From Patescibacteria group bacterium (GTDB taxonomy: Bacteria; Patescibacteriota; Patescibacteriia; GWA2-46-9), in assembly GCA_041675205.1 (NCBI GenBank), contig JBAYUF010000004.1, positions 29,898 through 93,897 of the forward strand: a DNA stretch of 64,000 bases, in the 5' to 3' direction. How positions within the stretch are numbered: the stretch's first letter is position 1; the number at the start of each line of letters is the position of its first letter. Under the pieces are notes generated by a model, which made no database searches, had not been told where the DNA came from, and saw only the letters and a list, made by a program, of their open reading frames with translations. Shown one piece after another: positions 3,065-55,048 of the stretch. The position numbers were made by a program, and so were the translations under genes.

Positions 3065-4274
3065 TATGCCTAAAATCAAAACGGACCCAAAAATAATTCA
3101 TCGTCTACTCACTCGTGGTGTAGAAACTGTTTACCCTACAAAAGAGGCTTTAGAGAAAGTTTTGTTATCGGGTAAAAAGTTGCGGATTTTTCATGGCATT
3201 GATCCGACCGGTAAGCTACACATTGGACACAGTGTCAGCTTGAGGAAACTTCGACAATTTCAGGACTTGGGGCACGAGGTTATTGTGCTCATTGGAGACT
3301 TTACGGCTCGCATTGGCGACCCGACCGATAAAAGCGCGACGAGGCAAGCATTGTCTAAGCGTGAGGTGCTTCAGAACGCTCACGACTATAAAAAAATAAT
3401 TGGTAAAATTTTAGATCTAAAGAAAACAAACGTCCGTTTTCTGCACAACGAAAAATGGACGAATAAGTTAAAGCCCGAGAACTTACTCGAGCTGGCGTCT
3501 TCGTTTACCGTTTCACGCCTCTTAGAACGGGACATGTTCCAAAACAGAATTAAAGAGGGCAAAGAAATACGCGTCCACGAATTTCTCTACCCAATTTTTC
3601 AAGCCTACGACAGCGTTACCATGGATGTCGATATTGAAATTGGTGGTAACGACCAAACATTTAACATGCTGGCTGGGCGAACACTGCTGAGAAAGTTAAA
3701 AGACAAAGAAAAATTTGTTTTGGCAATGAAGCTGTTAACGAATGCCGACGGCAAAAAAATGGGCAAAACCGAGGGTGTAAAAATCAATCTTGACTCCGCT
3801 GCTACTGACATGTACGGAATGCTGATGGCTGTGCCCGACACTTCTATTATCGACTTCTTTACATTGTGTACCGATGAATCGGACGAAGAAATAGAAAAAA
3901 TGAGGCGAGTACTCGCGTCTAGTTCATCAAACCCGCGCGACCTTAAAATGAAGTTGGCTCGAACAATTGTTGCGCTCTACCACAACGTGAAAGAAGCCAA
4001 AAAGGCGGAAGCAAATTTTGTAAACGTATTCCAAAATAAAGAGCAACCTGAATCAATTCCCACAGTCAAACTGACAAAGTGGCCAAAGACAATTCTTCAG
4101 GCGCTCGTTGTCTCAGGCCTCGCAACCAGTATGAGTGAGGCGCGACGCTACGTTGTGCAAGGTGGTGTACGCATTGCTGACAGTGTGGTCACCGACCCAA
4201 ATGCAATGCTCCCCGCTTCTCCGGTCATCATCAGCCGCGGCAAGCGACATTATTGCCGACTTCAAAAACAGTAA
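3057..4274 (+). CDS. tyrS: Tyrosyl-tRNA synthetase with C-terminal S4 domain
   Basis: HIGH motif (KLHIGHSV), KMSKS variant (KKMGKTEG) and an S4-like C-terminus are present. The start overlaps the valS stop by 8 nt. Confidence 0.88.
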   Translation: MASMPKIKTDPKIIHRLLTRGVETVYPTKEALEKVLLSGKKLRIFHGIDPTGKLHIGHSVSLRKLRQFQDLGHEVIVLIGDFTARIGDPTDKSATRQALSKREVLQNAHDYKKIIGKILDLKKTNVRFLHNEKWTNKLKPENLLELASSFTVSRLLERDMFQNRIKEGKEIRVHEFLYPIFQAYDSVTMDVDIEIGGNDQTFNMLAGRTLLRKLKDKEKFVLAMKLLTNADGKKMGKTEGVKINLDSAATDMYGMLMAVPDTSIIDFFTLCTDESDEEIEKMRRVLASSSSNPRDLKMKLARTIVALYHNVKEAKKAEANFVNVFQNKEQPESIPTVKLTKWPKTILQALVVSGLATSMSEARRYVVQGGVRIADSVVTDPNAMLPASPVIISRGKRHYCRLQKQ

Positions 4275-6046: not shown

Positions 6047-6907
6047 ATGTCGCTTCTCACCTTTTTTCACACCTACCTCCCCTCACCCATCATTACAACC
6101 GTTGGGGCATTACAACTGCACTGGTACGGTTTTTTTTATTTGCTAAGCTTCCTCGTTGGCTACGGATTGCTTGTTCACCGGCTGCAAAAGCTCAAGGCCG
6201 AGGGCAATGCAGCTACTAGAATACTCTACGACCGACTCCCCGGCTTTGCTGCTGGGCTAATTGTAAGCGGCATTATCGGCGCTCGACTGTATCACGTAGC
6301 AACACAGTGGTCGTATTATCAAGCCAACCTCTCTGAAATTCCTTTCCTCAATCACGGTGGGCTAGCCATTCACGGCGGACTCTTAGCAGGTGCCATATAC
6401 ATTGTTTGGTTTTCTCGTCGACACCTTCAACCATACCTGAAACCAACAGCTGCATTTTTATTTACTGCCGACCTCTTGGCGCCCGTTGTGCTTCTCGGCC
6501 AAGCCATTGGCCGTTGGGGTAACTACTTCAATCAAGAACTGTTTGGTTTACCAACAAGCTTGCCGTGGGGTATTCCCATTGCGCTCACCCACCGACCAGT
6601 GCTTTATACTGCAGCTACCCACTTTCACCCAGTATTTTTTTATGAATTTCTTTGGGACATACTAGGCGCCGCGGTTCTTTTTCTATTACAAAAGATAAAA
6701 TCAAAAAGAACGCTGCCTGGCAATGGGCATATTTTCTCGATGTATCTTATCTGGATGGGTCTTGGCCGAACGCTCGTTGAATTATTGCGGATTGAGCCAA
6801 CGCTCATGTTCTTTGATATTCGAATTCACCTACTTACCGCAATCGCCTTAACAGCAGCTGGTATAGCTTTCTTTACTGTTGCCCAAATGCAAAATCGGAC
6901 TGTATAA
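6047..6907 (+). CDS. lgt: Prolipoprotein diacylglyceryl transferase
   Basis: The Lgt signature GRWGNYFNQELFG is present in a multi-TM protein. The internal ATG at 6047 is preferred over the upstream frame extension, which translates as junk. Confidence 0.88.
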   Translation: MSLLTFFHTYLPSPIITTVGALQLHWYGFFYLLSFLVGYGLLVHRLQKLKAEGNAATRILYDRLPGFAAGLIVSGIIGARLYHVATQWSYYQANLSEIPFLNHGGLAIHGGLLAGAIYIVWFSRRHLQPYLKPTAAFLFTADLLAPVVLLGQAIGRWGNYFNQELFGLPTSLPWGIPIALTHRPVLYTAATHFHPVFFYEFLWDILGAAVLFLLQKIKSKRTLPGNGHIFSMYLIWMGLGRTLVELLRIEPTLMFFDIRIHLLTAIALTAAGIAFFTVAQMQNRTV

Positions 6908-6914
6908 TATTATT

Positions 6915-7460
6915 ATGCGTAAACTCATACTATTATTCGGTATTACCGTACTCCTCACGCTACCTCTTTCTAAAGTCAGTGCTGAGCAAATTGGGACGTG
7001 TAACTGTATTCCAACTGGTTCAGGAACAGCGCAGACTTACTTCAATTTGCCTGAACAAGACTGTGGCTTTAAAGAGGCAGAATTAACTGCCAGTTGCTCC
7101 TGGTCGCCAACTTCAGGCGCAGAAACAAATACAGGGATATATCCAACTGGTGCTGAAACAAAAACCGGCGGTTTAGGCGCGGGTAAAGCCGTAAATCTTT
7201 CAAACCCTCTTGGTGAAGGAAATGTTGATGTGAAGCTGATTATCGGCCGCGTCATTCGAACTACCCTCGGTATCGTTGGCTCAATTGCGCTCATTATTTT
7301 TGTTTACGGCGGCCTTCTCTGGACAACCAGTGCTGGTAACGCAGAGCAAGTGAAAAAAGGAACGGATACCCTACTGTGGGCAGCCATTGGGTTAACAGTT
7401 ATTTTCACAAGCTACACCTTGGTTAGCTTCCTCCTCGAAACCATAACGCAGACATCATAA
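6915..7460 (+). CDS. Small secreted protein with TrbC/VirB2-like (T4SS pilin-like) C-terminal double-TM domain
   Basis: It has a signal peptide (MRKLILLFGITVLLTLPLSKVSA) and a Cys-rich N-region. The C-terminus (LIIGRVIRTTLGIVGSIALIIFVYGGLLWTTSAGNAEQVKKGTDTLLWAAIGLTVIFTSY) resembles the conjugative pilin-like family common in CPR bacteria. Confidence 0.6.
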   Translation: MRKLILLFGITVLLTLPLSKVSAEQIGTCNCIPTGSGTAQTYFNLPEQDCGFKEAELTASCSWSPTSGAETNTGIYPTGAETKTGGLGAGKAVNLSNPLGEGNVDVKLIIGRVIRTTLGIVGSIALIIFVYGGLLWTTSAGNAEQVKKGTDTLLWAAIGLTVIFTSYTLVSFLLETITQTS

Positions 7461-7484
7461 TTTTCTTAGATCTTTGCAAATAAG

Positions 7485-7510
7485 CCTCGCACGTGCGGGG
7501 TTTATTTTTT
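7485..7510 (+). terminator. Rho-independent terminator after pilin-like gene
   Basis: A GC hairpin (cctcgc-acgt-gcgggg) is followed by the run tttatttttt. Confidence 0.7.
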
Positions 7511-7821
7511 ATGTCCCCTTAAACTGAGCAAGCAAATAGACGCTCAAAATTAGCTTATTATTGACAAGGGCCAATTTCTATGCCACTATACTTAGTTCTT
7601 TTTAAATTGCGCCTCCAGCGCACATTTGAAAAGGATGATCTTCCAGGACTTTGAAAAAAGAATAGGAAGAATGCCACGCAAACCTAGCGTGGTGTGCTGC
7701 GTGAAAACGCAGTTCATCATCATGAGGTAAACAATAACCCCGTGGGTCGCTATTGCGAACCCGCCACCACCCGCCGAGTACAAGATGCTCGTGCGGTTTT
7801 CTGCATACAGGAGAAAAACCA

Positions 7822-10056
7822 GTGACACAACCATACAGAAACGGCCCTCGAGGCCAAGGTGGCGGAGGTGGCGGACAGCCACGTCCTGCGGGTGGCGCTC
7901 CGGCACAACAGCCGGAACGCGTCGAGCTGCTTCGTGCAATCGCGAAGCAAAACGAGGCGGAAGAATACAAATTCGAAGTGGCGGTGCTGACGCGCGTTAG
8001 CCGAAACCTGCAGGCCCTCGGCCGGCGGGTGCTCCTGATGGTGAACGGCACCGCACGAAACGAACAAAGTGCCAGCGCAGAGACCGACCCAGCAACGGGA
8101 AGGATTTGGCTGCGCACTATCGTTGACGTGCGACAGCAGCACGACGGCGACCCCCTCGAGCTGCAGGTGGTGCTTACAAACACCACCATCGGTTCGAACA
8201 TCGTCAGCCTGAATCTCCAGACTGGCGAACCGGCTGCCGAACCGGCGGTAGAAATGCCACCAGCCAAAAAGGTGATGGCGTCAGCCAGCGCCGGAAAGAA
8301 GGCGCGGCACCACGTCCTGGTCTACCTCCTCGACAATGACGAGCAACCGACAACTGGCGAGGTGGTCGCACTGTACTCTCCAGAGTGCTGCAGTGCGAGT
8401 CGCTGCACCACGTACCAGATACCGGAGGTGGGCGCGGACTTGGAGTTTGCGCTTATTGACGGCGAATCCCTCGCCATCACCTTCGAGTGCCCCGGTGCCA
8501 CTCCGGCATCGGTAACCCTCCAAGGACCCGATAAAGTGCCGCCGGTAACCCCGTCGAAGCCAGCAACAAAGGTCAAACTGGTGGAAACCGGAACGACCTA
8601 CAACCCGGACACCGGTGCCTGCGCAGTCCTCGTTACGCCGCGCGCGTACGACGAAGACGGCAAGGGCGTGAGCTGCACCCTGCAGCTCACAACAGCGGAA
8701 CCCATCGAGATGTACCGTCTCGAAGGTGGCGTGGAGACCTGGGTCTCCACCGGCCAGCAGTTCACATTGCTGGTGTCAGCCATGCCGACCACCAGCTATC
8801 GGCTTATCAACTACCACACCACGGCAGTTGAGGTCGACTGCGACGTCGTCGGGCTTAATGCCGAGCTCGACAACAAGGAGCTGCCGGCTGCGAAGTCGAT
8901 GACTCCGTCTGGCAGGCTGGGCTGGCTCGAGGCCGCGCTGTACAGCACGGCTATCGGAATCGGCTTCATCCTGTTCGGCTGGATCTTCGTCAAAGCCATC
9001 ATCTGGATGGCTGGCGTGGTCTTGGCGCTGTCACTTGGTTCCGTTATCGTTGCCAACTTCCGCTCTCGTCGTCGTGAGGACGAAGAACCGGGTGGTGATG
9101 ATCACGAAGATGAAGAGGGGCGATTCAATGAACGGCTTTCAAGAAGGTCAGTGCTGAGCCGAACGTTCAACTGGCTCTTGCCGGTGCTTTGCATCATCGT
9201 CGGAGCGATTATCCTCGGATGGGTACTCACTCAGATTAGCGACTGGATGGCTGGCGTGGTCTTGGCGCTGATGCTTGTTTCCGTTGTCGTCGTTAGCTTC
9301 CGTTCTCGTCGCCGTCGTGAGGACGAAGAACTGGATGATGACTATCGGGAAGAAGAGGAGGAGCGAATCGAACGACCAGACAGGCAGTTCCGTCGGAACA
9401 AGACGATCGACTGGTCGAAACTGGTACCCTCTGACAACTTGGTGTGGGGATCATGGATGCTGGTAACGCTGCTCGTCAGCGCACTCGCAATCACGAACCC
9501 CGGGCCGAGTCAAGACGAGGTTGCGAAGGCCTACTCGTCACCGCAAACGATCGCAGTACTCGAGCAGATGGAGCAGAAGCAGAAACGCTTCTATGACCGC
9601 GTACTGCGCAACGAGGTTACAGAGACCAAGGAGAAAGAAACGAAAGAAGAAAAGGTCGCGCCGGTGAAAGAAACAGAACGCCGAGGAAACTGGGTAACAC
9701 TGCCCCTGGTAGTGTACCTATGGTTCTGGGCGTTTGCGCTCTTCATCCCCACCATCGGTGATGAACTGCGGGACTACGCCCACCGGTCGATCGATAAAAT
9801 CACCGGCGGATTCGACGGCGAGGTAAAGGTAGTCGGACCAGGAGCAACACTCCTGACCAGCCTCCTTCGTCCCCTTTCCGCCAAGAACAAGCCAACAGGA
9901 GAAAGAATGGCTGAGGCAGCAACCAGCACAATGGAAACTGTCATCAAAGAGGTGGGGATCGGCGATTTGCTTCGGCATATGGCCGCCAACATCTTCACGG
10001 ATCACATTTTGAAGGGCCGGCTGTTCAAACATCTGGTCCCAGGAGGAGTACGATGA
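7822..10056 (+). CDS. Hypothetical large membrane protein, GC-rich island gene A
   Basis: A GTG start at 7822 is preceded by AGGAGA with 8-nt spacing, and GC is about 62% against a host of about 48%. The N-terminus is Gly-rich and the soluble domain is Cys-containing. Two tandem TM-helix plus RSRRRREDEE modules are present, followed by further TM helices. Confidence 0.6.
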   Translation: MTQPYRNGPRGQGGGGGGQPRPAGGAPAQQPERVELLRAIAKQNEAEEYKFEVAVLTRVSRNLQALGRRVLLMVNGTARNEQSASAETDPATGRIWLRTIVDVRQQHDGDPLELQVVLTNTTIGSNIVSLNLQTGEPAAEPAVEMPPAKKVMASASAGKKARHHVLVYLLDNDEQPTTGEVVALYSPECCSASRCTTYQIPEVGADLEFALIDGESLAITFECPGATPASVTLQGPDKVPPVTPSKPATKVKLVETGTTYNPDTGACAVLVTPRAYDEDGKGVSCTLQLTTAEPIEMYRLEGGVETWVSTGQQFTLLVSAMPTTSYRLINYHTTAVEVDCDVVGLNAELDNKELPAAKSMTPSGRLGWLEAALYSTAIGIGFILFGWIFVKAIIWMAGVVLALSLGSVIVANFRSRRREDEEPGGDDHEDEEGRFNERLSRRSVLSRTFNWLLPVLCIIVGAIILGWVLTQISDWMAGVVLALMLVSVVVVSFRSRRRREDEELDDDYREEEEERIERPDRQFRRNKTIDWSKLVPSDNLVWGSWMLVTLLVSALAITNPGPSQDEVAKAYSSPQTIAVLEQMEQKQKRFYDRVLRNEVTETKEKETKEEKVAPVKETERRGNWVTLPLVVYLWFWAFALFIPTIGDELRDYAHRSIDKITGGFDGEVKVVGPGATLLTSLLRPLSAKNKPTGERMAEAATSTMETVIKEVGIGDLLRHMAANIFTDHILKGRLFKHLVPGGVR
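9001..9092 (+). repeat. Direct repeat copy 1 inside island gene A
   Basis: The core ctggatggctggcgtggtcttggcgctg and the tail ttccg.tctcgtcg.cgtcgtgaggacgaagaac are shared with copy 2. Copy 1 encodes WMAGVVLALSLGSVIVANFRSRRREDEE. Confidence 0.85.
9238..9332 (+). repeat. Direct repeat copy 2 inside island gene A
   Basis: The 28-nt core is identical to copy 1 and lies about 240 bp downstream. Copy 2 encodes WMAGVVLALMLVSVVVVSFRSRRRREDEE. Confidence 0.85.
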
Positions 10057-11147
10057 GCGAACACGGCGGAGGTCACGGCGAGAGTCATGGCCTCTTTGGT
10101 AAACTGGCGATTGCTGCAGGAGTGGCCATCGCCTTCGCCAGCCTCGTCGCATGGGCGACGGGGTGTTCTTTCACGAACGTGTTCGTGCCGATCATGGCAA
10201 TCGCGTTCATAACCGTTGTAGCGGCGGCGTTCATTCGCCTACCACAGCGCGCTTCGCGTCACTACCCGGGTTCGGCCGGATGGTGGAAGAGGCTCCTGAT
10301 GTTTGTCGGCACGGGTTTCGCCCTCGCCGCCATCGTCAGTCTGCGCAACAATGCTACCGCAAGTGAGGCGGAGCTACTGTCGTTCTGGAACGTCCAGGTA
10401 GCAGTAGCCATTACAGCAATGAGCGCGTGGGCGATGTTCGAGTTTTGGCACCAGCATGGTTACCGGCTCGCGGGAGCTGTCATGTTTGGCGTCGTGAACT
10501 CGATGCTTATCACGCTGATGTTGATCGGCTGGTTCCCTCTCACGATGCTCGAAACGGCCGGCTGGCGACCAGTAACGGATGCCAGCACTGCCGACATCGT
10601 TCGCGTCGACGACGAAGGAGTAGGCATCAGCTTTACGCAACGCAAGTTGTGGCGAGGCCGACTTCAAGATGGCCTCGACACGGCAATCAAGGATTCTGAA
10701 ACCCGTCTGAAAGACGGCAAGATCGGAACCAAGGAGGCATTGGACATTCAAACCAGGGCCCTCAAGGACTACAAAGAGGGCATCAGCAAAATGGAGGCGG
10801 AGCTGAGACTTGCTCCTCCGCTGTCGGAACGAGTGAGCGGAAAAGTGAAGGAGGTACTTTCCGCACTCAGGAGCACACCACAGAAACCTGCCGTATCAAA
10901 CCGACCGGACGGCGTTCCTGAGAACGCAGTCCGCTTCGTCCTTGAACCGGGAGAAGACTGGTGCCCAACCGAGAAAACGAAACTCGGCATCAAGGGCGAA
11001 GACGGACGCGAGTATGCGTTTGTCGACGTCTCGACCGGACATGCGCCGACGGTGCTCGACGGATCAGACCACAGTGGGATCTGGCCGTACTGCATCCGTG
11101 GCGGAGAGCTCGGCGCTGCCATCTGGGTGTGGCCGAGGTCCTCATGA
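10053..11147 (+). CDS. Hypothetical 4-TM membrane protein with C-terminal soluble domain, GC-rich island gene B
   Basis: The ATG overlaps the gene A stop (ATGA) and has a strong SD (AGGAGGAG). GC is high and no family is recognisable. Confidence 0.55.
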   Translation: MSEHGGGHGESHGLFGKLAIAAGVAIAFASLVAWATGCSFTNVFVPIMAIAFITVVAAAFIRLPQRASRHYPGSAGWWKRLLMFVGTGFALAAIVSLRNNATASEAELLSFWNVQVAVAITAMSAWAMFEFWHQHGYRLAGAVMFGVVNSMLITLMLIGWFPLTMLETAGWRPVTDASTADIVRVDDEGVGISFTQRKLWRGRLQDGLDTAIKDSETRLKDGKIGTKEALDIQTRALKDYKEGISKMEAELRLAPPLSERVSGKVKEVLSALRSTPQKPAVSNRPDGVPENAVRFVLEPGEDWCPTEKTKLGIKGEDGREYAFVDVSTGHAPTVLDGSDHSGIWPYCIRGGELGAAIWVWPRSS

Positions 11148-11169
11148 GGAGGAGGACAAGAACATACAG

Positions 11170-11208
11170 GGACCCGCCCAAGACGCAACGGCGTCAGGCG
11201 GGTCCCGA
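11170..11208 (+). terminator. Strong GC hairpin downstream of island gene B
   Basis: A perfect 10-bp stem (gggacccgcc / ggcgggtccc) carries an 18-nt loop. A second weak hairpin plus T-run follows at about 11275-11308. Confidence 0.45.
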
Positions 11209-11320
11209 GGAAGGCAAGGGCGAGAGCGAGGAAGAGCAACAGCTCAACCTCGTCTCTCGCCCTTTTCGTTTATAAAAAAGACCCCACGCAAGTGAGGTCG
11301 CTTTTTAGAATGGTGAAGAA

Positions 11321-11614
11321 CTAAGCGGATTTCAACTGCTCATCAATAATTTTTAATTTTACGGCGTTTCGAATGTCTTCTTCAGCCTGCCGAATCGACC
11401 GCAACGCCGCTACGGCAGTCTCTAAATCTTGCGCATACTGCTCATAAATTGCTGTCTTCGCTTTCATGTGAGCAAGCATGGCGGAAACAACAAGTGCACC
11501 TCGTGCTGTTCGTGGCCCGTCCTGCACGTCTTCTTGAATAGCTTTCTTGAGGTCTCCGGCGTTACTGTTACCCTGGAGAGCGACAATGGTTTTTTTAAAG
11601 AAATCTGTAATCAT
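11321..11614 (-). CDS. Hypothetical small alpha-helical protein
   Basis: It is a 97-aa protein lying 10 nt downstream of the coiled-coil gene on the same strand, so the two probably form an operon. No family is recognisable. Confidence 0.5.
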   Translation of the reverse strand: MITDFFKKTIVALQGNSNAGDLKKAIQEDVQDGPRTARGALVVSAMLAHMKAKTAIYEQYAQDLETAVAALRSIRQAEEDIRNAVKLKIIDEQLKSA

Positions 11615-11623
11615 ATCTATATT

Positions 11624-12802
11624 TTATGCGGCTGTTGCCCCACTCTCAAGAGAACGCAGTGCGCAATCAATTACCATTTTCTCACTAACTCGCCAAGTCA
11701 CCTCACGCATGCTAGTGAGTGTTTCGACAAGAAATTCTCTTGCATCTTTTTCAGTACCAATGACTCTCTTTGCTAAGTACGGCTTTAAAGAAGAGCGAAG
11801 GACATCTACGGCATTATTCTTTTGAAGAGCGTCTTCAACAGACGTTTCAAAAAGCACTTTCGTCTGATCTATAATTTCCTTATCAAGCGCTCTCAAAACT
11901 TCATCGTCGACAGTTAACGCCTCACTCACAATTTTATTTCCCCGCATGGCTTGATACTGACGAATCACCTTCTCTTTGTCCTCCAACGTCTTGGGCTCAG
12001 CACTGTCGTCTAGTGCGTCTCTTAACCCCTCTCTGATGGCTATATTTGCCATACTCCCCACTCGTTCAGTAACACCAAGACTTGCGAACACAACTTCATT
12101 TAACTCTGCAAGTTGCGCCAGCGCTGCATCGCGGAGCGCTTCAGCATTTTCAATTTTTTCTACTTTTTCAAGCTGTTGCTCGAGCACTTTTTTAATATTT
12201 TTTGCATTGTCACCATATCGTTCAATAGCGGCGTCCTCGTTACTCGTTCGGGAACGGAAACCCCAACGCTTCAAACGCGACGAACCCTTTTTGGCCGCTT
12301 CGAGATCTCTCGCCTTACTTTGTGCTTTCTCAGCACCACCCAATTTTTTACATTCGCTCTCAAGACTCGCTATTTGCTTCGTAACTGCCTGGTACTGTTC
12401 AATTGCATGTTGCATCTCAGCAATGGCCTCATGATTTCCTTCACGAACATACGCATCGATTTCATCAACAATTATACCTTCTACATCACCACTCTTTAAG
12501 CCAACCTCGCGAGGTATTTCTTTTTTGAAATAATTCGATAAACCCTTCTTTACTTCGTTAACGTTATTGTACTGTTCAATATATTGTTGTAACTGTTCTG
12601 GCGACATTTCACTCCCCTCACGGGTTGCGCCTGCTATCGCCTCTTTGTCATCGTCGGGTAACCTATCAACGAATTCTCTAAAACTCTTGTCGTTTAAATA
12701 TTTCTCAAGCGCTTTCGCATCTAACCGCGTACCCCCTTCTTCTGCAGCTTTATCCGCACTTGTCGAATGCTCTCTACTTCGACGTCCAAATGGATTATAC
12801 AT
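11624..12802 (-). CDS. Hypothetical acidic coiled-coil protein (about 393 aa)
   Basis: It is rich in long E/K/Q helical segments. The start is taken at the ATG (MYNPFGRR) at 12802 rather than the upstream extension. Confidence 0.55.
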   Translation of the reverse strand: MYNPFGRRSREHSTSADKAAEEGGTRLDAKALEKYLNDKSFREFVDRLPDDDKEAIAGATREGSEMSPEQLQQYIEQYNNVNEVKKGLSNYFKKEIPREVGLKSGDVEGIIVDEIDAYVREGNHEAIAEMQHAIEQYQAVTKQIASLESECKKLGGAEKAQSKARDLEAAKKGSSRLKRWGFRSRTSNEDAAIERYGDNAKNIKKVLEQQLEKVEKIENAEALRDAALAQLAELNEVVFASLGVTERVGSMANIAIREGLRDALDDSAEPKTLEDKEKVIRQYQAMRGNKIVSEALTVDDEVLRALDKEIIDQTKVLFETSVEDALQKNNAVDVLRSSLKPYLAKRVIGTEKDAREFLVETLTSMREVTWRVSEKMVIDCALRSLESGATAA

Positions 12803-12879
12803 ATTATGGGCATTATAGCAGCTATACCTGCGTTTTTCAATGGCTGTCCCCTGATTATCGAGGTATACTATGTACACAT

Positions 12880-13632
12880 ATGGAAACAACACCATTCCCC
12901 CTCGGCATCCTTATTAACGCTTTTGTCACGAGCGTCGTCAGTGCGACGGCGTTTGCTTTTGTTTTGTTTTTAACTCGCCGCTGGCGACAACTCTCCCCGG
13001 CAATGCGCAGCTACGCAGTTTTCTGGCTCGCCACCAGTGTGCTTTGGGCAGCCGTTACTATTCGTTATCTTCTTGTGATTTTTGGCTACGCAGGCCAACA
13101 GTTCCACTTCGTAAACGAATTTATGGTTGAAACGGCAGTATTTAGCTCTGGCGTTGCTCTGTACTTCTACCTCGGCATGCAGCTCTTTAATTCAATCCGC
13201 AAAGCCCTTGCCTTAACTAGTCTTGGTCTACTTGCCATGGTGGCGGGGCTATGGCAATTTTTATTACCTGGCGGGTTTCACCCTGGTATTGTTACCGCTT
13301 TCACTGCTGACCCAGTGCCAAGCATCCGATTTCTCGCGATCTTTGGTTCATCAGCAAGTTTGGCGATGCTACTCCTCATTCGACACATTTTTATAACTCT
13401 GAAAGCCTGGCGAGGACAACCGATTGGTACCTTCCCGTATGCCCTCCTCTATTCGCTCTCGCTCATCATCTACGTAACGCTCGGCGTTATTGACCAAATG
13501 AAAATTCTTATCGATTGGCCGCTCGTCATCTTCCGTATTCTTTACACGGCCGTTTTCCTGTTCGCTTATTTAGTGCTTACGACCGAAGAAGAACAGCGAC
13601 AAAATTACTTGCAACAAAAAACGGTCTCGTAA
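12880..13632 (+). CDS. Hypothetical polytopic membrane protein
   Basis: It has about 7 predicted TM helices and is divergent from the coiled-coil operon. The start is taken at METTPFPLG. Confidence 0.55.
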   Translation: METTPFPLGILINAFVTSVVSATAFAFVLFLTRRWRQLSPAMRSYAVFWLATSVLWAAVTIRYLLVIFGYAGQQFHFVNEFMVETAVFSSGVALYFYLGMQLFNSIRKALALTSLGLLAMVAGLWQFLLPGGFHPGIVTAFTADPVPSIRFLAIFGSSASLAMLLLIRHIFITLKAWRGQPIGTFPYALLYSLSLIIYVTLGVIDQMKILIDWPLVIFRILYTAVFLFAYLVLTTEEEQRQNYLQQKTVS

Positions 13633-13990: not shown

Positions 13991-14035
13991 AACGTCAGTA
14001 AAGTACGAAGATAAAAACTTGTGTTCTCTGCACTG

Positions 14036-14110
14036 CGGACTCGACCGGATTCGAACCGGCGATCTTCTCCGTGACAGGGAGACGTGTTAACCAGGCTACA
14101 CCACGAGTCC
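14036..14110 (-). tRNA. tRNA-Asp (GTC)
   Basis: The reverse complement is GGACTCGTGGTGTAGCCTGGTTAACACGTCTCCCTGTCACGGAGAAGATCGCCGGTTCGAATCCGGTCGAGTCCG. It folds as a cloverleaf with anticodon GTC and a TTCGAAT T-loop. CCA is not encoded. Confidence 0.9.
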
Positions 14111-14175
14111 ACACTGAAGAGAACGAAAAGAGTATAGGTTGAAACGTTGTAATGGACAACTCTAACGAGATACTG

Positions 14176-14252
14176 CGGACTCGATCCCGTGTCGACGGGA
14201 CGATATCTCCGTGATCCCGCGAAGCGGGATTACCAGGCTACACCACGAGTCC
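14176..14252 (-). pseudogene. Chimeric tRNA-Asp-like pseudogene (unit 3)
   Basis: It keeps the first 23 nt (GGACTCGTGGTGTAGCCTGGTAA) and the last 11 nt (TCGAGTCCGCA) of tRNA-Asp. It also keeps the identical 27-nt upstream leader (gtccacactgaagagaacgaaaagagtat). The D/anticodon/T arms are replaced by non-canonical hairpins. Confidence 0.5.
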
Positions 14253-14369
14253 ACACTGAAGAGAACGAAAAGAGTATCACAAAAGAATTTAAGGAAACGA
14301 GTAGTGAAGCGGCGGCCGCTTGCTTACCTTAGCCTAGGGCTACACGGAAAACAAGCGGCAAAACAGGTG

Positions 14370-25949: not shown

Positions 25950-26660
25950 CGCACCATTATTGGGGCGACCCTCTCGAAACCTCTTCAAACCTGCACCCCC
26001 TCGCTCAGCGCCAGCGCGAACTAGAATGCTTGCGTGGCGTGAAGTGAAAGGCGCCGATTGTCGGCGCAGGCGGCGGAGACTGCCGGTTGCAGGTGTCCGG
26101 CCTGCGTCGTGCCCGCTCACGCTCTCAATCGGAGAGGTACGGACCCGTTTTCCATGCCCACGGACCACCTTCGCCATGCGCCCGCTTACCCGGAAAAGGA
26201 ATCGCAGGCGCGCCAGGCACCGGAGATGCGAAAGTCCCATGGTCGTCGACGAAGTAGAGCACTCCGCCGCGCCACGCGACTGACCGCCTGGTCTTCCTGG
26301 CGAACCGCCTCTGGGTCGCACGGCGACGTTCCTTCACCTTCGAATGCCTCGAATGCGACGATGACGTCGACTGCTTCTTGGGGGAAGCCGCTACCGATTG
26401 CACCGGCTCCTCCATCCTCACGCCATGCGCTCGGACGGAAGCCTTATCGAGCTGACCAACGAGCACCACGCCGCGTGCCCCTTCTTCGGCAATCTTGAAA
26501 TAGTGCCTGCAACTGCACTGCGCCTACAGATCGCCACCCCCGCCCTGCTCGTCTTCCAGAACGTCCTTGTCGACTCGACAAGACGCACGATCGCGCCGCA
26601 GCTACGATGGCGAAAGTACTGGTCAATCCAGGGTCCTTGCTCTTCTGCATACATGATGCT
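25950..26660. other. GC-rich (about 62%) block with mutually overlapping ORFs in several frames, likely degraded foreign DNA
   Basis: No frame gives a convincing protein. A minus-strand ATG at 26654 with an AGGAGG SD opens a 78-aa ORF (26418-26654), and adjacent minus ORFs lie in shifted frames. Confidence 0.3.
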
Positions 26661-36450: not shown

Positions 36451-37482
36451 ATGAACGACAAGGACGTATTGAATGCGGCAATCGACTGGCTTGTTGCCGA
36501 CCGGCTGCCGAATGACTTCTCTTTCACAACCTGCCTAAAGGCACTCTTCAAATGCGACGATGTGCCTTTGATCGCTCGATTTCTCAGCGAGCACTTCGCC
36601 TGGCTACGGCACAACACTGCTGTGGCACACGAGCACATCATCGAAGCCTTCTGGCTACTAAAAACGGAGCCAGTGGTGGTGCCCGGTCGGGTACTACAGC
36701 TTGGTGGAACCGGCGGCGCAGGTAAATCACGCAGACTGAACACCACGAGTTTAGCAACACTTGTGGCGGCCAGCGTGGATAGCGGCTGGCAGATAGTGAA
36801 GTTCGGTAATTCCGGACAACGCACGGCGGGCAGTACCGACTTCTGGGAAATAGCACTCGGTATTCCTGGAAGCTCACTGAACGTCGCACGCGCAACGAGT
36901 ACTCTACCAACAACTGGTTTGGCCATTATTCATGCCAGAACGGTCATCCCCTTGCTCGGAAAATTGCGCGCAGCCCGCCAGCAAGTCCAGGGGCCTACTG
37001 TTCTGAACCTCGTTGGTCCGTTGCTTCACCCTATCTACGGCGAAGAAACAATGGCGGCGATTGGGGTTTTTGACGAGAAGTTCCTGATGCCAGTAGCGCA
37101 CGCCATGCAGCAGCTTGGTTTGTCTGGGGTTGTATATAGCGGCACAGGCGAGCACGGTAGCTGGCTCGATGAACTCTCTTCAGACGGCATGACCTACGTG
37201 ATTGGTATTGGGCGGAACGAATTGTACCGTCCGGCAACGCTGCTCACTCAGTACTTTTCCACGTCAGAAACAGTGAGTGCAGCTGTCCTCGACAGACTCG
37301 TCCAAGGTGACGTTGAAAACCCTGCGGCTCGATGGGTTATCGAAAATGCGGCGTTCTTACTTGCGGCCACTGGTCGACCGGGCAGCGCACCAAATGCAGC
37401 GAGTGTTCGAGAGGTGACGATCACACTGAACAACGCCGTACGAAATGGTTCGGTGAAACGCCTCATTGAGGCATACCGATAG
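36451..37482 (+). CDS. TrpD2/YbiB-like protein (anthranilate phosphoribosyltransferase family, glycosyltransferase family 3)
   Basis: Gly-rich loop LQLGGTGGAGKSRRLNT; GC-rich with AGGAGG SD. Confidence 0.6.
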   Translation: MNDKDVLNAAIDWLVADRLPNDFSFTTCLKALFKCDDVPLIARFLSEHFAWLRHNTAVAHEHIIEAFWLLKTEPVVVPGRVLQLGGTGGAGKSRRLNTTSLATLVAASVDSGWQIVKFGNSGQRTAGSTDFWEIALGIPGSSLNVARATSTLPTTGLAIIHARTVIPLLGKLRAARQQVQGPTVLNLVGPLLHPIYGEETMAAIGVFDEKFLMPVAHAMQQLGLSGVVYSGTGEHGSWLDELSSDGMTYVIGIGRNELYRPATLLTQYFSTSETVSAAVLDRLVQGDVENPAARWVIENAAFLLAATGRPGSAPNAASVREVTITLNNAVRNGSVKRLIEAYR

Positions 37483-54061: not shown

Positions 54062-55048
54062 TCAGTAGACGAGCGTCCCGCCGATGACCGGATAGCTATC
54101 CGACACCGTACTCATCACCTCCGACCCTCCGGGTGGTACGTACGACCAAGAGAGCCCGCCCGTAGCGCCTTGCGTACCATCGATTGTCACGCCGAAGGTA
54201 CTCATGGCAGTCGCACCGCTGGTGTCGACTTTGACACCCAAAGAAACGGTGTTGCCAGCAGTAACAGTGAAGGGCGGGTCAAACGTTACCAGACTGGTTG
54301 ATCCACCCATGGTGCCGCTCCAGTTATCACCCGTGCCGATGGAACTGGCGCCGACGTAGATCACCGGCGAGGCATTTACCGGCACTTGCGCGCCGACATT
54401 GCCAGTCCGCGTCAGTGTCAAAGAATGCAAGGTGAGATTTCGACCACCTTGCGCCTTCACATTGAAGATGGCGACCGTCTGTCCAACGGCTGGTGTAGAG
54501 GCACCGACTGGGCTCGCCGCCGAAAGGGTGATGATGGGCACCACCGATTCGGCGAGTGTCGTTGTTGTCGTCGTCGTGGTGGTAGTCGTTGTTGTCGTTG
54601 TGGTGACACTGCTGCACTGCGCGGTGCAGCTAGTAACCTCCGCAATCAATACTTCGACATCATCGCAGACGAGTGTGCCGCACCCCACCTCGCCTTGAGG
54701 GCCAGGTGCGCCTTGGAGTCCCTGGGATCCAACGACACCAGGCAGACCCTGCGGACCCTGAATGCCGCAGTAGCGAATGACGGCGTTCACAGACGAAACG
54801 CCGTCGCTCACATCGACAACGCAGTCCGCCGGCATGAAGGTCGCGGTCGCGGTGAAAATGCCATGGCCGCCCGCTTCCCCCGAAGGGATGCCGTCGAGCA
54901 TGACCGGGAAACCAGGCGTGGCACCACTGCCCTTGATGATGAGCTGACCACCTTTGATGGCAGCTTGCTTCACCACGATGCCGTCAGCCGCTTGTGCCGA
55001 AAAGGCCAGCGCGCACGAAAAGAACAGAGCTATGAACGGATTCCGCAT
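54062..55048 (-). CDS. Secreted collagen-like (Gly-X-Y) and poly-Thr repeat protein
   Basis: A signal peptide, a GIQGPQGLPGVVGSQGLQGAPGPQGEVG run and a T16 tract (imperfect triplet repeat at about 54555-54607) are present. GC is about 60% and the SD AAGGAGGAA precedes the start. Confidence 0.6.
   Translation of the reverse strand: MRNPFIALFFSCALAFSAQAADGIVVKQAAIKGGQLIIKGSGATPGFPVMLDGIPSGEAGGHGIFTATATFMPADCVVDVSDGVSSVNAVIRYCGIQGPQGLPGVVGSQGLQGAPGPQGEVGCGTLVCDDVEVLIAEVTSCTAQCSSVTTTTTTTTTTTTTTTTLAESVVPIITLSAASPVGASTPAVGQTVAIFNVKAQGGRNLTLHSLTLTRTGNVGAQVPVNASPVIYVGASSIGTGDNWSGTMGGSTSLVTFDPPFTVTAGNTVSLGVKVDTSGATAMSTFGVTIDGTQGATGGLSWSYVPPGGSEVMSTVSDSYPVIGGTLVY

What the first reader, a model, noticed from the sequence alone, without database searches (positions are those of the whole stretch)
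7600..11310. 3.5-kb GC-rich island encoding two overlapping membrane proteins of unknown family, next to a T4SS-pilin-like gene
GC jumps from about 47% to about 62% between roughly 7.6 kb and 11.3 kb. The two genes are 7822-10056 and 10053-11147, and they overlap by ATGA. Both carry strong Shine-Dalgarno motifs, whereas flanking host genes (valS, tyrS, argS, lgt, rplT, glyQS) have none. Neither protein matches a family I recognise. Gene A has a Gly-rich N-terminus and a Cys-containing soluble domain followed by multiple TM helices. Gene B is a 4-TM protein with a large C-terminal soluble domain. The island is bounded by terminator-like hairpins and sits directly after a TrbC/VirB2-like secreted pilin gene. 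Together this looks like a horizontally acquired, envelope-associated two-gene module. It could be a transport, surface or host-interaction system. It could also be a remnant of a mobile element whose other genes lie elsewhere.
Basis: partly seen in the sequence, partly recalled or inferred. Interest (0 to 1): 0.72.

Follow-up and report, generated by a model that had tools for sequence, protein, structure and literature searches.

The report
Conserved GC-rich membrane operon, not island
The GC-rich two-gene block is real, but it is not a recent foreign insertion: it is an uncharacterised membrane-protein operon kept at the same spot next to lgt and a pilin gene in at least four distantly related Patescibacteria, and in all of them it has its own promoter, folded leader RNA, ribosome-binding sites and GC-rich codon usage.

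Summary
Genes A (7822-10056) and B (10053-11147) overlap by ATGA. They have GC 0.59 and GC3 0.67, against a host GC3 of 0.46 +/- 0.055. Both have GGAGG-type Shine-Dalgarno sites that the 16 neighbouring genes lack, and neither matches any Pfam, NCBIfam, PHROG, PADLOC or PDB family.

The interpretation as a horizontally acquired island is not supported. An exhaustive phmmer search found four remote relatives of A. All lie at the same locus, (valS)-tyrS-argS-lgt-T4SS_pilin-[A]-[B], in three other deeply diverged Patescibacteria/Uhrbacteria lineages (ArgS 47-53% identical). In every lineage the cassette is GC-rich and NNC-biased, and every cistron has a Shine-Dalgarno site. Each has a conserved TTGACA-N17-TAnnnT promoter, a structured leader of about 225 nt that opens with a 5' hairpin at an invariant GUUCU, and its own terminator. 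Cassette codon usage correlates between lineages (r 0.59-0.88) far better than with its own genome (0.10-0.38).

Best reading: this is a native, vertically inherited, fast-evolving envelope operon. It would combine a cytoplasmic Ig-like domain, a membrane anchor and an extracytoplasmic two-cysteine domain. Its composition seems to be actively maintained, probably through its expression mode. Its function is unknown and was not tested.

The parts
6047..6907 (+). lgt (prolipoprotein diacylglyceryl transferase). It is the conserved left-hand neighbour of the pilin-cassette unit in all four lineages.
   Evidence: PF01790, E 7e-58. Synteny. 45-50% identity to the other three lineages (45-53% among all pairs).
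6915..7460 (+). VirB2/TrbC-like pilin gene with a signal peptide. It lies immediately upstream of the cassette in all four lineages. Its own terminator is at 7478-7507.
   Evidence: PF18895 T4SS_pilin, E 5e-9. Terminator found. Synteny.
7561..7589 (+). Cassette promoter: -35 TTGACA at 7561-7566, a 17-nt spacer, and -10 CACTAT at 7584-7589. The transcription start is inferred at about 7594-7596.
   Evidence: TTGACA-N17-TAnnnT followed by an invariant GTTCT is present 239-279 nt upstream of the first cassette start codon in all four lineages. It occurs only once in each locus. The transcription start is inferred, not measured.
7595..7821 (+). Structured 5' leader of about 227 nt with host-like GC (0.48). 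It contains a 5'-terminal hairpin P1 (7598-7633, starting at the invariant GUUCU), a hairpin CCACGCAAACCUAGCGUGG (7671-7695), a hairpin at 7696-7714, and the Shine-Dalgarno site AGGAGA at 7809-7814.
   Evidence: RNAfold z = -6.8 (window), -5.7 (L035), -3.35 (L029) and -3.35 (L037). In every lineage the MFE structure opens with a long 5'-terminal hairpin (about 14-18 bp), and the stem sequences differ between lineages. The window and L035 leaders share many positions over about the first 110 nt (roughly 70% by eye), although the adjacent proteins are only 40% identical. No Rfam match.
7822..10056 (+). Gene A (744 aa). The N-terminus is Gly/Arg-rich. A soluble beta-rich region follows (aa 50-360), including a confidently modelled Ig-like beta-sandwich at aa 250-355 (nt 8569-8886) that carries the conserved TPRxYDxxG motif. 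Then come two copies of a TM hairpin plus an RSRRREDEE loop (an internal duplication, 9003-9123 and 9243-9366), TM5 followed by the T(H/N)PGP motif, a charged loop of about 65 aa, TM6 with the IPTIxDE motif, and a C-terminal tail of about 100 aa.
   Evidence: ORF and Shine-Dalgarno site. Hydropathy. The word-indexed search found only the protein itself. The exhaustive phmmer search found P0004-P0007. Alignments. AlphaFold2 pLDDT is 77-88 for aa 250-355 and about 50 overall. Foldseek returns generic Ig-like domains. Internal repeat.
10053..11147 (+). Gene B (364 aa), translationally coupled to A through the ATGA overlap, with Shine-Dalgarno site GGAGGAG at 10042-10048. It has five N-terminal TM helices, a coiled-coil hairpin (aa 192-253) and a conserved C-terminal beta domain of about 70 aa with two invariant cysteines, C304 and C347 (nt 10905-11144).
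   Evidence: One 40%-identical homologue, P0003. The genes in the B position in L029, L035 and L037 share the C-terminal Cys domain and the PP..ER motif.
11169..11271 (+). 3' UTR of the cassette. It has a 10-bp hairpin GGGACCCGCC...GGCGGGTCCC (11169-11206) and an intrinsic terminator, GCGAGAGCGAGG...CCTCGTCTCTCGC followed by CCTTTTCGTTT (11220-11271). A 43-codon ORF (11144-11275) overlaps this stretch. It is probably not a gene.
   Evidence: RNAfold z = -9.7. Equivalent long GC stems followed by a U-run end the cassette in L029, L035 and L037, with z from -6.2 to -7.0.
11280..11299 (-). Terminator hairpin of the convergent 97-aa gene. It marks the right boundary and is not part of the cassette.

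Best explanation
The block is a native, vertically inherited operon of one Patescibacteria clade (Uhrbacteria and relatives). It is a self-contained transcription unit.

Its layout is as follows. A sigma-70-type promoter at 7561-7589 is followed by a leader of about 225 nt that begins with a stable 5'-terminal hairpin. Then come Shine-Dalgarno-led, translationally coupled cistrons: A, which in other lineages is split into A_N and A_C, and B. A 3' hairpin and an intrinsic terminator close the unit.

The products probably form a membrane complex. A_N would be a cytoplasmic Gly/Arg-rich arm plus Ig-like beta-sandwich domains. A_C would be a membrane anchor of 4-6 TM helices with one outside loop of about 65 aa. 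B would have 3-5 TM helices, with its coiled coil and a small two-cysteine beta domain outside the cell. The constant neighbours, lgt and a VirB2-like pilin, suggest a role at the cell envelope or surface. The fast sequence divergence suggests exposure to a host or phage arms race.

The high GC3, the NNC codon bias and the Shine-Dalgarno sites are not relics of a donor genome. They are maintained in every lineage. The most likely reason is that this is one of the few leadered, Shine-Dalgarno-translated, mRNA-stabilised operons, and probably a strongly expressed one, in genomes whose other genes look mostly leaderless or re-initiation-coupled.

Shown here: the synteny, homology, sequence signals, composition and RNA folds. 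Inferred: the transcription start, the membrane topology, complex formation, the expression level and the function.
For: Synteny: A-family proteins lie directly after lgt and T4SS_pilin in L029-L034 (Uhrbacteria), L035/L036 and L037. In L035 the downstream genes (250aa, GIY-YIG, rplT, infC, smpB and onward) continue as in the window.

Deep divergence of the host genomes: ArgS identity is 47-53% and Lgt 45-53%. ArgS and pilin four-point sums favour (window,L035)|(L029,L037), the same grouping that A_N and A_C give.

Recurrent cassette signature: GC is 0.55-0.61 and GC3 0.60-0.73, against flanks of mostly 0.39-0.51 and 0.36-0.58 (a few flank genes fall outside these ranges; L029 valS and leuA are listed in the Against line). 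NNC/(NNC+NNT) is 0.73-0.90 against 0.19-0.59. A GGAG core lies 6-14 nt before all 10 cassette start codons.

Codon usage: RSCU correlation between cassettes is 0.59-0.88, between a cassette and its own host genes 0.10-0.38, and between host gene sets 0.56-0.81.

Expression signals: the promoter, the invariant GTTCT and the 5' hairpin are conserved, and the leaders and 3' UTRs are strongly structured. Leader GC is 0.48, like the host, so the GC excess sits in the coding sequence.

Other Shine-Dalgarno genes: the only other start-proximal canonical sites in the window belong to leadered genes that are also GC3- and NNC-rich, 36451-37482 and 54062-55048.

Topology: in B a basic loop precedes the last TM helix and the two-Cys C-terminal domain is invariant. 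In A the RSRRR loops follow the TM hairpins, and the separately encoded A_N proteins have no signal peptide.

From my own knowledge, not tested here: 5'-terminal stem-loops stabilise bacterial mRNAs (for example ompA), and selection for higher GC in expressed genes has been reported (Raghavan et al. 2012).
Against: There is no expression data. The L035 ribosomal-protein genes rplT and rpmI do not share the NNC bias (0.45-0.48), so the codon usage is not simply that of highly expressed genes.

The bias raises both C- and G-ending codons. That looks more like a general GC shift than tRNA-specific selection.

Some other GC-rich, Shine-Dalgarno-led genes, such as leuA in L029, are plausible true transfers. 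The signature therefore cannot by itself separate native genes from foreign ones.

Only four or five lineages are known, so the covariation and phylogenetic arguments are thin.

The structure models are poor outside one domain. No T4SS genes occur in the 64-kb window, so the link to the pilin rests on adjacency alone.
Confidence: 0.55

Rival explanations
1. Recurrent replacement. The cassette belongs to an unsampled GC-rich, Shine-Dalgarno-using gene pool, such as a mobile element, a phage of these bacteria or a GC-rich sister lineage. It has been repeatedly re-introduced at the same pilin-adjacent hot spot, so each copy still carries donor composition.
For: The codon usage is shared between cassettes and differs from each host. 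A fifth homologue pair sits on a 1.26-kb contig of 61% GC whose context is unknown. The region just downstream of the cassette is variable between lineages: 97-aa and 392-aa genes in the window, 2009-aa and 195-aa genes in L029, and nothing in L035. Other GC-rich, Shine-Dalgarno-led genes such as leuA look acquired.
Against: No integrase, att-like direct repeats or adjacent tRNA were found. The only other sighting among 1.84 billion representative proteins, 5.8 billion clusters, viral contigs, phages and plasmids is a 1.26-kb contig too short to show its context (L001); every homologue whose context can be read sits at this locus. The promoter and leader have host-like GC and are conserved together with the cassette. 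The cassette grouping matches ArgS and pilin. The cassettes are as diverged as, or more diverged than, the host genes.
Confidence: 0.15
2. GC-biased gene conversion. The cassette is native but is a recombination hot spot, like a fast-evolving surface locus exchanged between strains. Biased repair drives its GC3 upward in every lineage.
For: The GC3 rise is uniform and includes both G- and C-ending codons. The proteins diverge unusually fast (22-40% identity against 45-53% for the flanks). The adjacent region is variable.
Against: The shift of about +0.2 in GC3 is larger than I would expect from gene conversion in bacteria, judging from memory and without checking the literature here. The leader inside the same unit has host-like GC. 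The only population sample available, 11 loci of the L029 lineage, is clonal at 99.98% or more, so recombination could not be assessed. This model does not explain the Shine-Dalgarno sites or the terminal hairpins.
Confidence: 0.12
3. One reading: a single recent horizontal acquisition into this genome, either a genomic island or the remnant of a mobile element.
For: The GC, GC3, tetranucleotide and Shine-Dalgarno signatures are atypical. The proteins are orphans.
Against: Homologous cassettes occupy the same locus in three other lineages that have diverged to about 50% ArgS identity. There are no mobility genes or repeats. The grouping is congruent with host genes.
Confidence: 0.03
4. Assembly chimera or contamination from a GC-rich organism.
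For: There is an abrupt change in composition.
Against: The sequence is identical across both junctions in ENA, JGI and Logan assemblies. The same architecture was assembled independently in three other lineages and in more than 10 samples.
Confidence: 0.01

Closest known systems
Genomic islands detected by atypical GC, codon usage or tetranucleotide signature
   Same: The block is a sharp compositional outlier: GC3 z = 3.9 and the top tetranucleotide distance in the window. It has its own expression signals, orphan proteins and bounding hairpins.
   Different: It is syntenic in four deeply diverged genomes. It has no integrase, tRNA or direct repeats. Its composition deviates in the same way in every lineage. 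It behaves as a false positive for composition-based detection of horizontal transfer.
VirB2/TrbC-like pilin loci of Patescibacteria (PF18895; reviewed in PMC12102498)
   Same: The cassette always follows a PF18895 pilin gene. Patescibacteria pilin genes are often accompanied by variable, poorly conserved membrane proteins. The paper proposes fast evolution for host adaptation.
   Different: There is no VirB4, VirB6, VirB3 or coupling protein nearby. A and B match no T4SS profile in Pfam. The pilin has its own terminator, so it is a separate transcript.
mRNAs stabilised by a 5'-terminal stem-loop, such as the E. coli ompA 5' UTR (own knowledge)
   Same: A long 5' UTR begins with a stable hairpin within a few nucleotides of the inferred 5' end. 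It carries a strong Shine-Dalgarno site and encodes envelope proteins.
   Different: There is no sequence or Rfam relationship. The transcription start and the stability were not measured. This leader has at least three further hairpins of unknown role, so a regulatory function (riboswitch, attenuator or protein-binding leader) is equally open.
Native highly expressed genes that mimic foreign DNA in codon-usage screens
   Same: There is strong NNC preference, strong Shine-Dalgarno sites and translational coupling. One probable abundant host protein in the window, an RRM protein, has a similar NNC fraction of 0.74.
   Different: Ribosomal-protein genes at the syntenic locus in L035 do not share the bias. 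The shift is a general GC3 rise. The proteins evolve fast, unlike typical highly expressed genes.

Membership tests
Recently acquired genomic island or mobile-element remnant | Atypical base composition and codon usage relative to the host | tested here: met
   GC3 is 0.674 against 0.458 +/- 0.055. The tetranucleotide distance is the highest in the window.
Recently acquired genomic island or mobile-element remnant | Absent from the same locus in related genomes (interrupted synteny) | tested here: not met
   Homologous cassettes lie between the pilin gene and the downstream genes in L029, L035 and L037. No cassette-free context was found for the flanking proteins.
Recently acquired genomic island or mobile-element remnant | Mobility hallmarks: integrase or transposase, flanking direct repeats, insertion next to a tRNA | tested here: not met
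   No such genes are present. The only flanking similarity is between two terminator hairpins (23 nt, 78%). The nearest tRNA is 2.9 kb away, beyond three genes.
Type IV secretion system components (VirB3, VirB6, VirB8, VirB4 and others) | Significant match of A or B to a T4SS component profile | tested here: not met
   Pfam and NCBIfam scans of A, B and all family members give only sub-threshold hits to TM segments. The CONJScan profiles were not available.
Type IV secretion system components (VirB3, VirB6, VirB8, VirB4 and others) | Clustering with a VirB4 ATPase | tested here: not met
   No VirB4-like domain was found among the neighbours or the 10 largest other ORFs of the 64-kb window.
Phage or prophage genes | Homology to phage protein families or phage genomes | tested here: not met
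   PHROGs gave no significant hit. tblastn against 50,697 phage records gave no match. IMG/VR scans gave none.
Anti-phage defence systems (PADLOC) | Match to a defence-system protein model | tested here: not met
   The only hit is a 13-bit match to the ZorB TM segment, E 0.013.
Known cis-regulatory RNA families (Rfam riboswitches and leaders) | Covariance-model match of the 5' leader | tested here: not met
   There was no hit at the gathering threshold. The only weak hits (E of 0.09 or more) fall on the pilin terminator.
Diversity-generating retroelement target | Template-repeat/variable-repeat pair with adenine-specific differences, with a reverse transcriptase nearby | tested here: not met
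   No such repeat exists in 7300-11500. The only repeat is the in-frame duplication of the TM hairpin. A bAvd-like gene occurs only in the L029 lineage. I did not search specifically for a reverse transcriptase.
NfeD-like 'membrane protein implicated in regulation of membrane protease activity' (JGI's name for A) | Match to the NfeD domain | tested here: not met
   No NfeD family appears among the Pfam hits at E <= 0.1. The name is recorded.
Translationally selected, highly expressed native genes | Codon usage shared with ribosomal-protein genes of the same genome | tested here: inconclusive
   The window RRM protein has an NNC fraction of 0.74, like A and B. However, rplT is not among the 16 most NNC-biased window genes, so it is 0.52 or lower, and L035 rplT and rpmI read 0.45-0.48 with few codons. 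Too few reference genes are available.
Translationally selected, highly expressed native genes | High transcript or protein abundance | not testable with these tools
   No metatranscriptome or proteome data were accessible.

The most novel reading that the evidence does not exclude
The cassette may be built for expression outside the normal regime of its own genome. In the extreme version it would be a T-DNA-like unit, delivered through the VirB2-like pilus apparatus and expressed in the GC-rich bacterial host of these epibionts. That would explain why a canonical promoter, a long stabilised leader, a strong Shine-Dalgarno site on every cistron, GC-rich codons and a private terminator are conserved as a package next to a pilin gene, in genomes that otherwise avoid these features.

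The evidence does not exclude this, but it does not favour it. Other ordinary leadered genes of the same genome share the same codon usage. The promoter resembles the genome's own promoters. No relaxase, oriT or border repeats were seen.
Probability: 0.03. Interest if true: 0.95.

Novelty: new variant of a known kind. Interest (0 to 1): 0.6.

Why it matters
There are three reasons.

1. It is a clean counter-example to calling horizontal transfer from GC, codon or tetranucleotide deviation. A block that passes every compositional test for foreignness turns out to be syntenic across genomes that have diverged to about 50% identity in ArgS. At that divergence synonymous sites are saturated. The deviant composition must therefore be actively maintained, gene by gene. 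This points to two coexisting expression regimes in these reduced genomes: leaderless or coupled genes on one side, and leadered, Shine-Dalgarno-led, GC3-rich genes on the other.

2. It defines two or three new protein families (A_N, A_C and B) and a conserved structured 5' leader RNA that is not in Rfam. All are tied to the lgt-pilin locus of Uhrbacteria-like Patescibacteria, organisms whose surface biology and host attachment are largely unknown.

3. The fusion and fission of A_N and A_C, and the parity-preserving gain and loss of TM helices in B, give testable constraints on the topology of a putative envelope complex.

Tried and rejected
- **Word-indexed searches.** The homology searches of A, B and a B profile found only the query proteins and one 40% homologue of B. 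This wrongly suggested orphan genes. The exhaustive phmmer search was what exposed the family.
- **Collection scans with the B profile.** The viral, genome and metagenome scans found nothing.
- **Metagenome scan with the A_C profile.** It only re-found the L029 lineage.
- **ArgS scan of GTDB representatives.** It found no close relative (45% identity at best) and no locus with lgt next to argS other than those already held. A broader synteny survey was therefore not possible.
- **Empty-site search.** Exact look-ups of the pilin and the 97-aa protein returned no alternative context.
- **tblastn against phages and plasmids.** No match.
- **Family and PDB profile searches.** PADLOC, PHROGs, NCBIfam, Pfam and PDB gave only sub-threshold hits to TM segments. 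I reject the NCBIfam SCO2097 and FILTED hits as compositional: 20-23 bits against cut-offs of 40-110.
- **AlphaFold2.** B (2 sequences) had pLDDT 49 and A (5 sequences) had pLDDT 50, apart from one Ig-like domain. Foldseek against PDB returned only generic beta-sandwiches. I ran no further search on these models.
- **Terminal inverted repeats or att sites.** The only candidate, 7490-7512 with 11272-11294, is two terminators that resemble each other.
- **DGR target hypothesis.** There is no TR/VR pair.
- **Third gene.** I rejected the 43-codon ORF at 11144-11275 because the stretch is better explained by conserved 3' hairpins.
- **Quantitative covariation for hairpin P1.** This was not attempted, because the MAFFT alignment puts the two arms out of register.
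- **Population variation.** The 11 loci of the L029 lineage are clonal.
- **Literature search by accession number.** It found nothing relevant.

Full report

Yes. GC in 500-nt windows is 0.55-0.62 from 7751 to 11250 and 0.43-0.50 on either side. The 2-kb maximum for the whole 64-kb window falls here, at 0.585.

- Gene A runs from GTG 7822 to TGA 10056 and is preceded by AGGAGA at 7809-7814.
- Gene B runs from ATG 10053 to 11147 and is preceded by GGAGGAG at 10042-10048.
- The two overlap by ATGA.
- Both have GC3 of 0.674. The mean for 57 other ORFs of the window is 0.458 (sd 0.055, maximum 0.614), so z = 3.9.
- The tetranucleotide distance to the rest of the window also peaks on the block, at 0.368 against a median of 0.17 (sd 0.039).
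- None of the 16 neighbouring called genes has a GGAG-type motif before its start.
- The upstream gene is a PF18895 T4SS_pilin (E 5e-9) and follows lgt.
- A and B match nothing in Pfam, PHROGs, PADLOC, NCBIfam or PDB beyond sub-threshold hits on TM segments.
- Three assemblies from ENA, JGI and Logan are 100% identical over both junctions.

The GC rise starts near 7750 rather than 7600. B has five rather than four membrane helices.

**2. The genes are not orphans, and the block is not an insertion.**

The word-indexed searches found only the query proteins, plus one 40%-identical B homologue on a 1.26-kb contig. The exhaustive phmmer search of A against 1.84 billion representatives then found four remote relatives:

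| Protein | Identity | Region of A matched |
|---|---|---|
| P0004 | 42% | residues 57-360 |
| P0005 | 31% | residues 455-686 |
| P0006 | 28% | residues 535-702 (best-scoring stretch) |
| P0007 | 30% | residues 519-674 (best-scoring stretch) |

Looking up their contigs gave the decisive result. Every one lies at the same locus in another Patescibacteria genome, in the order DHH-(valS)-tyrS-argS-lgt-T4SS_pilin-[A homologue]-[a gene in the B position].

- L029-L034 belong to Candidatus Uhrbacteria from the Rifle aquifer.
- L035/L036 and L037 are two further lineages.
- In L035 the genes after the cassette (250aa, GIY-YIG, rplT, infC, smpB, AI-2E, a class II aminoacyl-tRNA synthetase, M16, RRM) continue exactly as in the window.

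The four genomes are deeply diverged. Pairwise identity is 47-53% for ArgS and 45-53% for Lgt. In the window and L029, A is one protein. In L035 and L037 it is split into A_N and A_C genes that overlap by ATGA or abut, so the fused form joins two modules.

The B-position proteins (364, 332, 474 and 270 aa) are very divergent. They still share a juxtamembrane and coiled-coil region with a PP..ER motif, and a C-terminal domain of about 70 aa with two invariant cysteines. The 54-residue fragment upstream of the fifth B homologue (L001) resembles the A C-terminus, so the pairing holds there too.

Four-point comparison of ArgS and pilin identities favours (window,L035)|(L029,L037). A_N and A_C give the same grouping.

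There is no integrase, flanking direct repeat or adjacent tRNA. There is no relative in phage, plasmid or viral collections. No cassette-free context exists for the flanking proteins. The 'horizontally acquired island' reading fails.

**3. The compositional anomaly is conserved, and that is the interesting part.**

In all four lineages the cassette genes differ from their flanks in the same way:

| Measure | Cassette genes | Flanking genes |
|---|---|---|
| GC | 0.55-0.61 | mostly 0.39-0.51 |
| GC3 | 0.60-0.73 | mostly 0.36-0.58 |
| NNC/(NNC+NNT) | 0.73-0.90 | 0.19-0.59 |

A few flank genes fall outside these ranges. The clearest are valS and leuA in L029 (GC 0.54 and 0.56, GC3 0.63 and 0.64), and the AT-rich bAvd-like gene in L029 lies just below them (GC 0.38, GC3 0.32).

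All ten cassette start codons are preceded by a GGAG core, whereas the housekeeping flanks have none. Codon usage (RSCU) correlates between cassettes of different lineages at r = 0.59-0.88. It correlates with the genes of its own genome at only 0.10-0.38. Host gene sets correlate with each other at 0.56-0.81.

At this divergence synonymous sites are saturated. A donor signature could not have survived, so the composition must be maintained in each lineage.

Within the window, the only other canonical start-proximal Shine-Dalgarno sites belong to two further leadered genes:
- a Glycos_transf_3 gene at 36451-37482;
- a secreted orphan at 54062-55048.

Both are also among the most GC3- and NNC-rich genes. 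Many other first-in-operon genes have a TATAAT-like hexamer 6-12 nt before the ATG, and internal genes start at or next to the preceding stop. My impression, not a measurement, is that most genes here are leaderless or re-initiation-coupled, and that Shine-Dalgarno-led initiation is reserved for the few leadered genes.

**4. The cassette is a self-contained transcription unit with conserved RNA signals.**

Aligning the regions between the pilin gene and the cassette revealed an invariant TTGACA, a 17-nt spacer, a TAnnnT hexamer and then an invariant GTTCT. This lies 239-279 nt before the first start codon in all four lineages and occurs only once per locus. In the window the -35 is at 7561-7566, the -10 at 7584-7589, and GTTCT at 7595-7599.

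The inferred leader of about 225 nt folds far better than shuffled controls: z = -6.8, -5.7, -3.35 and -3.35. In each lineage the minimum-energy fold opens with a long hairpin (about 14-18 bp) that starts at the GUUCU. The stem sequences differ between lineages. RNA pairing is kept through G-U pairs where DNA palindromy is not, which argues for an RNA element rather than an operator.

The window and L035 leaders are alike at many positions over their first 110 nt or so (roughly 70% by my reading of the alignment, not a computed value), including the hairpin CCRCGCAAACCUNGCGUGG. The adjacent proteins are only 40% identical. Rfam has no match.

After B, each lineage has a strongly folded 3' UTR (z from -6.2 to -9.7) that ends in a long GC stem followed by a U-run. 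In the window there is a hairpin at 11169-11206 and a terminator at 11220-11271. The hairpin at 11280-11299 belongs to the convergent 97-aa gene. The leader has host-like GC (0.48), so the GC excess sits in the coding sequence and the 3' hairpins.

**5. What the proteins look like.**

*Protein A.*
- It starts with a Gly/Arg-rich arm. The other lineages begin with a short Arg- and Gly-containing N-terminus too (MASPKRDRGGRRPQ, MARHGRGGGQPQ, MAGRAGRGDPGGG), although the sequences do not align.
- Beta-rich domains follow. Only residues 250-355 are modelled with confidence (pLDDT 77-88). They form an Ig-like sandwich that carries the family motif TPRxYDxxG.
- Separately encoded A_N proteins have no signal peptide or TM segment. 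In the fused forms the TM hairpins are followed by RSRRR-type loops. I therefore infer that A_N is cytoplasmic.
- A_C has one TM hairpin, duplicated in the window at 9003-9123 and 9243-9366.
- Next comes a TM helix ending in T(H/N)PGP, a charged loop of about 65 aa that is predicted to lie outside, a TM helix ending in (I/V)PT(I/F)xD(E/D), and a cytoplasmic tail.

*Protein B.*
- It has 3 or 5 N-terminal helices, an odd number in every lineage by my reading of the alignment. L035 appears to have two extra helices further along, which keeps the total odd.
- A conserved basic loop precedes the last N-terminal helix.
- The coiled coil and the two-cysteine beta domain should therefore be extracytoplasmic.

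All of this topology is inferred.

**6. Mechanism, committed.**

I consider it most likely (about 0.55 overall) that this is a native envelope operon of an Uhrbacteria-like clade. It would encode a membrane complex that links a cytoplasmic Ig-like module to an exposed two-cysteine domain, and it would be functionally tied to the lgt-pilin locus.

My confidence in the parts differs:
- native, vertically inherited operon: about 0.85;
- envelope complex: about 0.6;
- composition maintained through its expression mode: about 0.4.

The package consists of a promoter, a 5' hairpin, strong Shine-Dalgarno sites, coupled cistrons, GC-rich codons and 3' hairpins. It reads as an adaptation for stable, efficient expression from a leadered mRNA in a genome where that is the exception.

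Rivals:
- recurrent replacement from an unsampled GC-rich pool (0.15);
- GC-biased gene conversion at a recombination hot spot (0.12);
- a single recent transfer (0.03);
- a chimeric assembly (0.01).

Arguments against the expression-linked explanation:
- Ribosomal-protein genes in L035 lack the bias.
- Both G- and C-ending codons rise.
- There are no expression data.

**7. Comparison with what is known.**

The block mimics a genomic island but fails the synteny and mobility criteria. It sits beside a VirB2-like pilin of the kind surveyed in Patescibacteria (PMC12102498). However, it has no T4SS profile match, and no VirB4 lies within the 64 kb. Its leader resembles ompA-type stabilising 5' UTRs in layout only (my own knowledge). 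Existing database names for family members are not supported by any profile match. These names are 'Extracellular solute-binding protein family 1' and 'membrane protein implicated in regulation of membrane protease activity'.

**8. Verdict.**

What remains is a new, narrowly distributed set of protein families, an unannotated conserved leader RNA, and a clear case of gene-specific composition maintained across deep divergence.

I score interest at 0.6. The function is unknown and only four or five lineages are available. Even so, the conserved separate codon usage is unusual and can be tested directly with existing metatranscriptomes and more genomes.

Noticed in passing
window 11321-12895 (- strand): Relative to the closest syntenic genome (L035), the segment that is actually specific to this lineage is not the GC-rich block. 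It is the AT-rich pair of orphan genes just downstream: a 97-aa gene and a 392/423-aa coiled-coil protein, both with leaderless-looking starts. L035 goes straight from B to the 250-aa gene. L029 has 2009-aa and 195-aa genes at this position instead. The variable hot spot therefore lies to the right of the cassette.
   Followed up: partly
window 36451-37482 (+) and 54062-55048 (-): These are the only other genes in the window with a canonical AGGAGGA Shine-Dalgarno site at the start. One is a Glycos_transf_3 (nucleoside/AMP phosphorylase-like) gene and the other is a signal-peptide-bearing orphan. Both have short leaders of 40-50 nt behind TTGACR-17-TAnnnN promoters. Both share the cassette's GC3 and NNC codon bias. 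L029 leuA and an L037 162-aa gene (1772-2260) behave the same way.
   Followed up: partly
window 14035-14110 and 14172-14277 (- strand): tRNA-Asp(GTC) is followed upstream by a tandem copy of itself and its upstream region, about 83% identical. The copy has a rearranged anticodon region, and neither ARAGORN nor Rfam recognises it. It may be a decayed or unusual tRNA gene.
   Followed up: partly
L029 7792-8139 (also L030-L033): A 115-aa bAvd / 23S-rRNA-IVP-like gene (PF22296, PF05635) sits between argS and lgt in the Uhrbacteria lineage only. Such proteins accompany diversity-generating retroelements. No TR/VR pair was seen in the window cassette, and I did not look for one in L029.
   Followed up: no
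L035 7938-8648: L035 has about 700 nt of extra sequence between the pilin gene and the cassette promoter. It has no ORF longer than 135 aa and has host-like GC. It may be a decayed gene or an RNA.
   Followed up: no
window 3066-4274 (tyrS) against L029, L035 and L037: TyrS identities are discordant with ArgS, Lgt and pilin. Window-L029 is 69% and L035-L037 is 64%, while all other pairs are 45-48%. This suggests exchange or paralogue replacement of tyrS within the otherwise syntenic block.
   Followed up: no
window 9003-9123 and 9243-9366: There is an in-frame internal duplication in gene A (81% identical over about 120 nt). It duplicates a TM hairpin together with its RSRRR(R)EDEE loop. The other lineages have a single copy.
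   Followed up: yes
window 11144-11275 (+): A 43-codon ORF (MRRRTRTYRDPPKTQRRQAGPEEGKGES...) starts with an ATGA overlap on the stop codon of B. L035 has a similar overlapping ORF with a shared QRRxAGP stretch. The conservation coincides with two RNA hairpins, so I read this stretch as a 3' UTR. A small third cistron is not excluded.
   Followed up: partly
window 26058-26498 (+): This 146-codon ORF has the highest GC in the window (0.646). It has no Pfam match and no Shine-Dalgarno site. It may not be a gene, and I did not examine it further.
   Followed up: no
database records for family members: KKU47446.1 (the L029 A homologue) is named 'Extracellular solute-binding protein, family 1'. JGI names the window's A 'membrane protein implicated in regulation of membrane protease activity'. 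Neither name is supported by any profile match. NCBI and JGI call A as 692 aa from a later start that lacks the Shine-Dalgarno-led GTG at 7822.
   Followed up: partly
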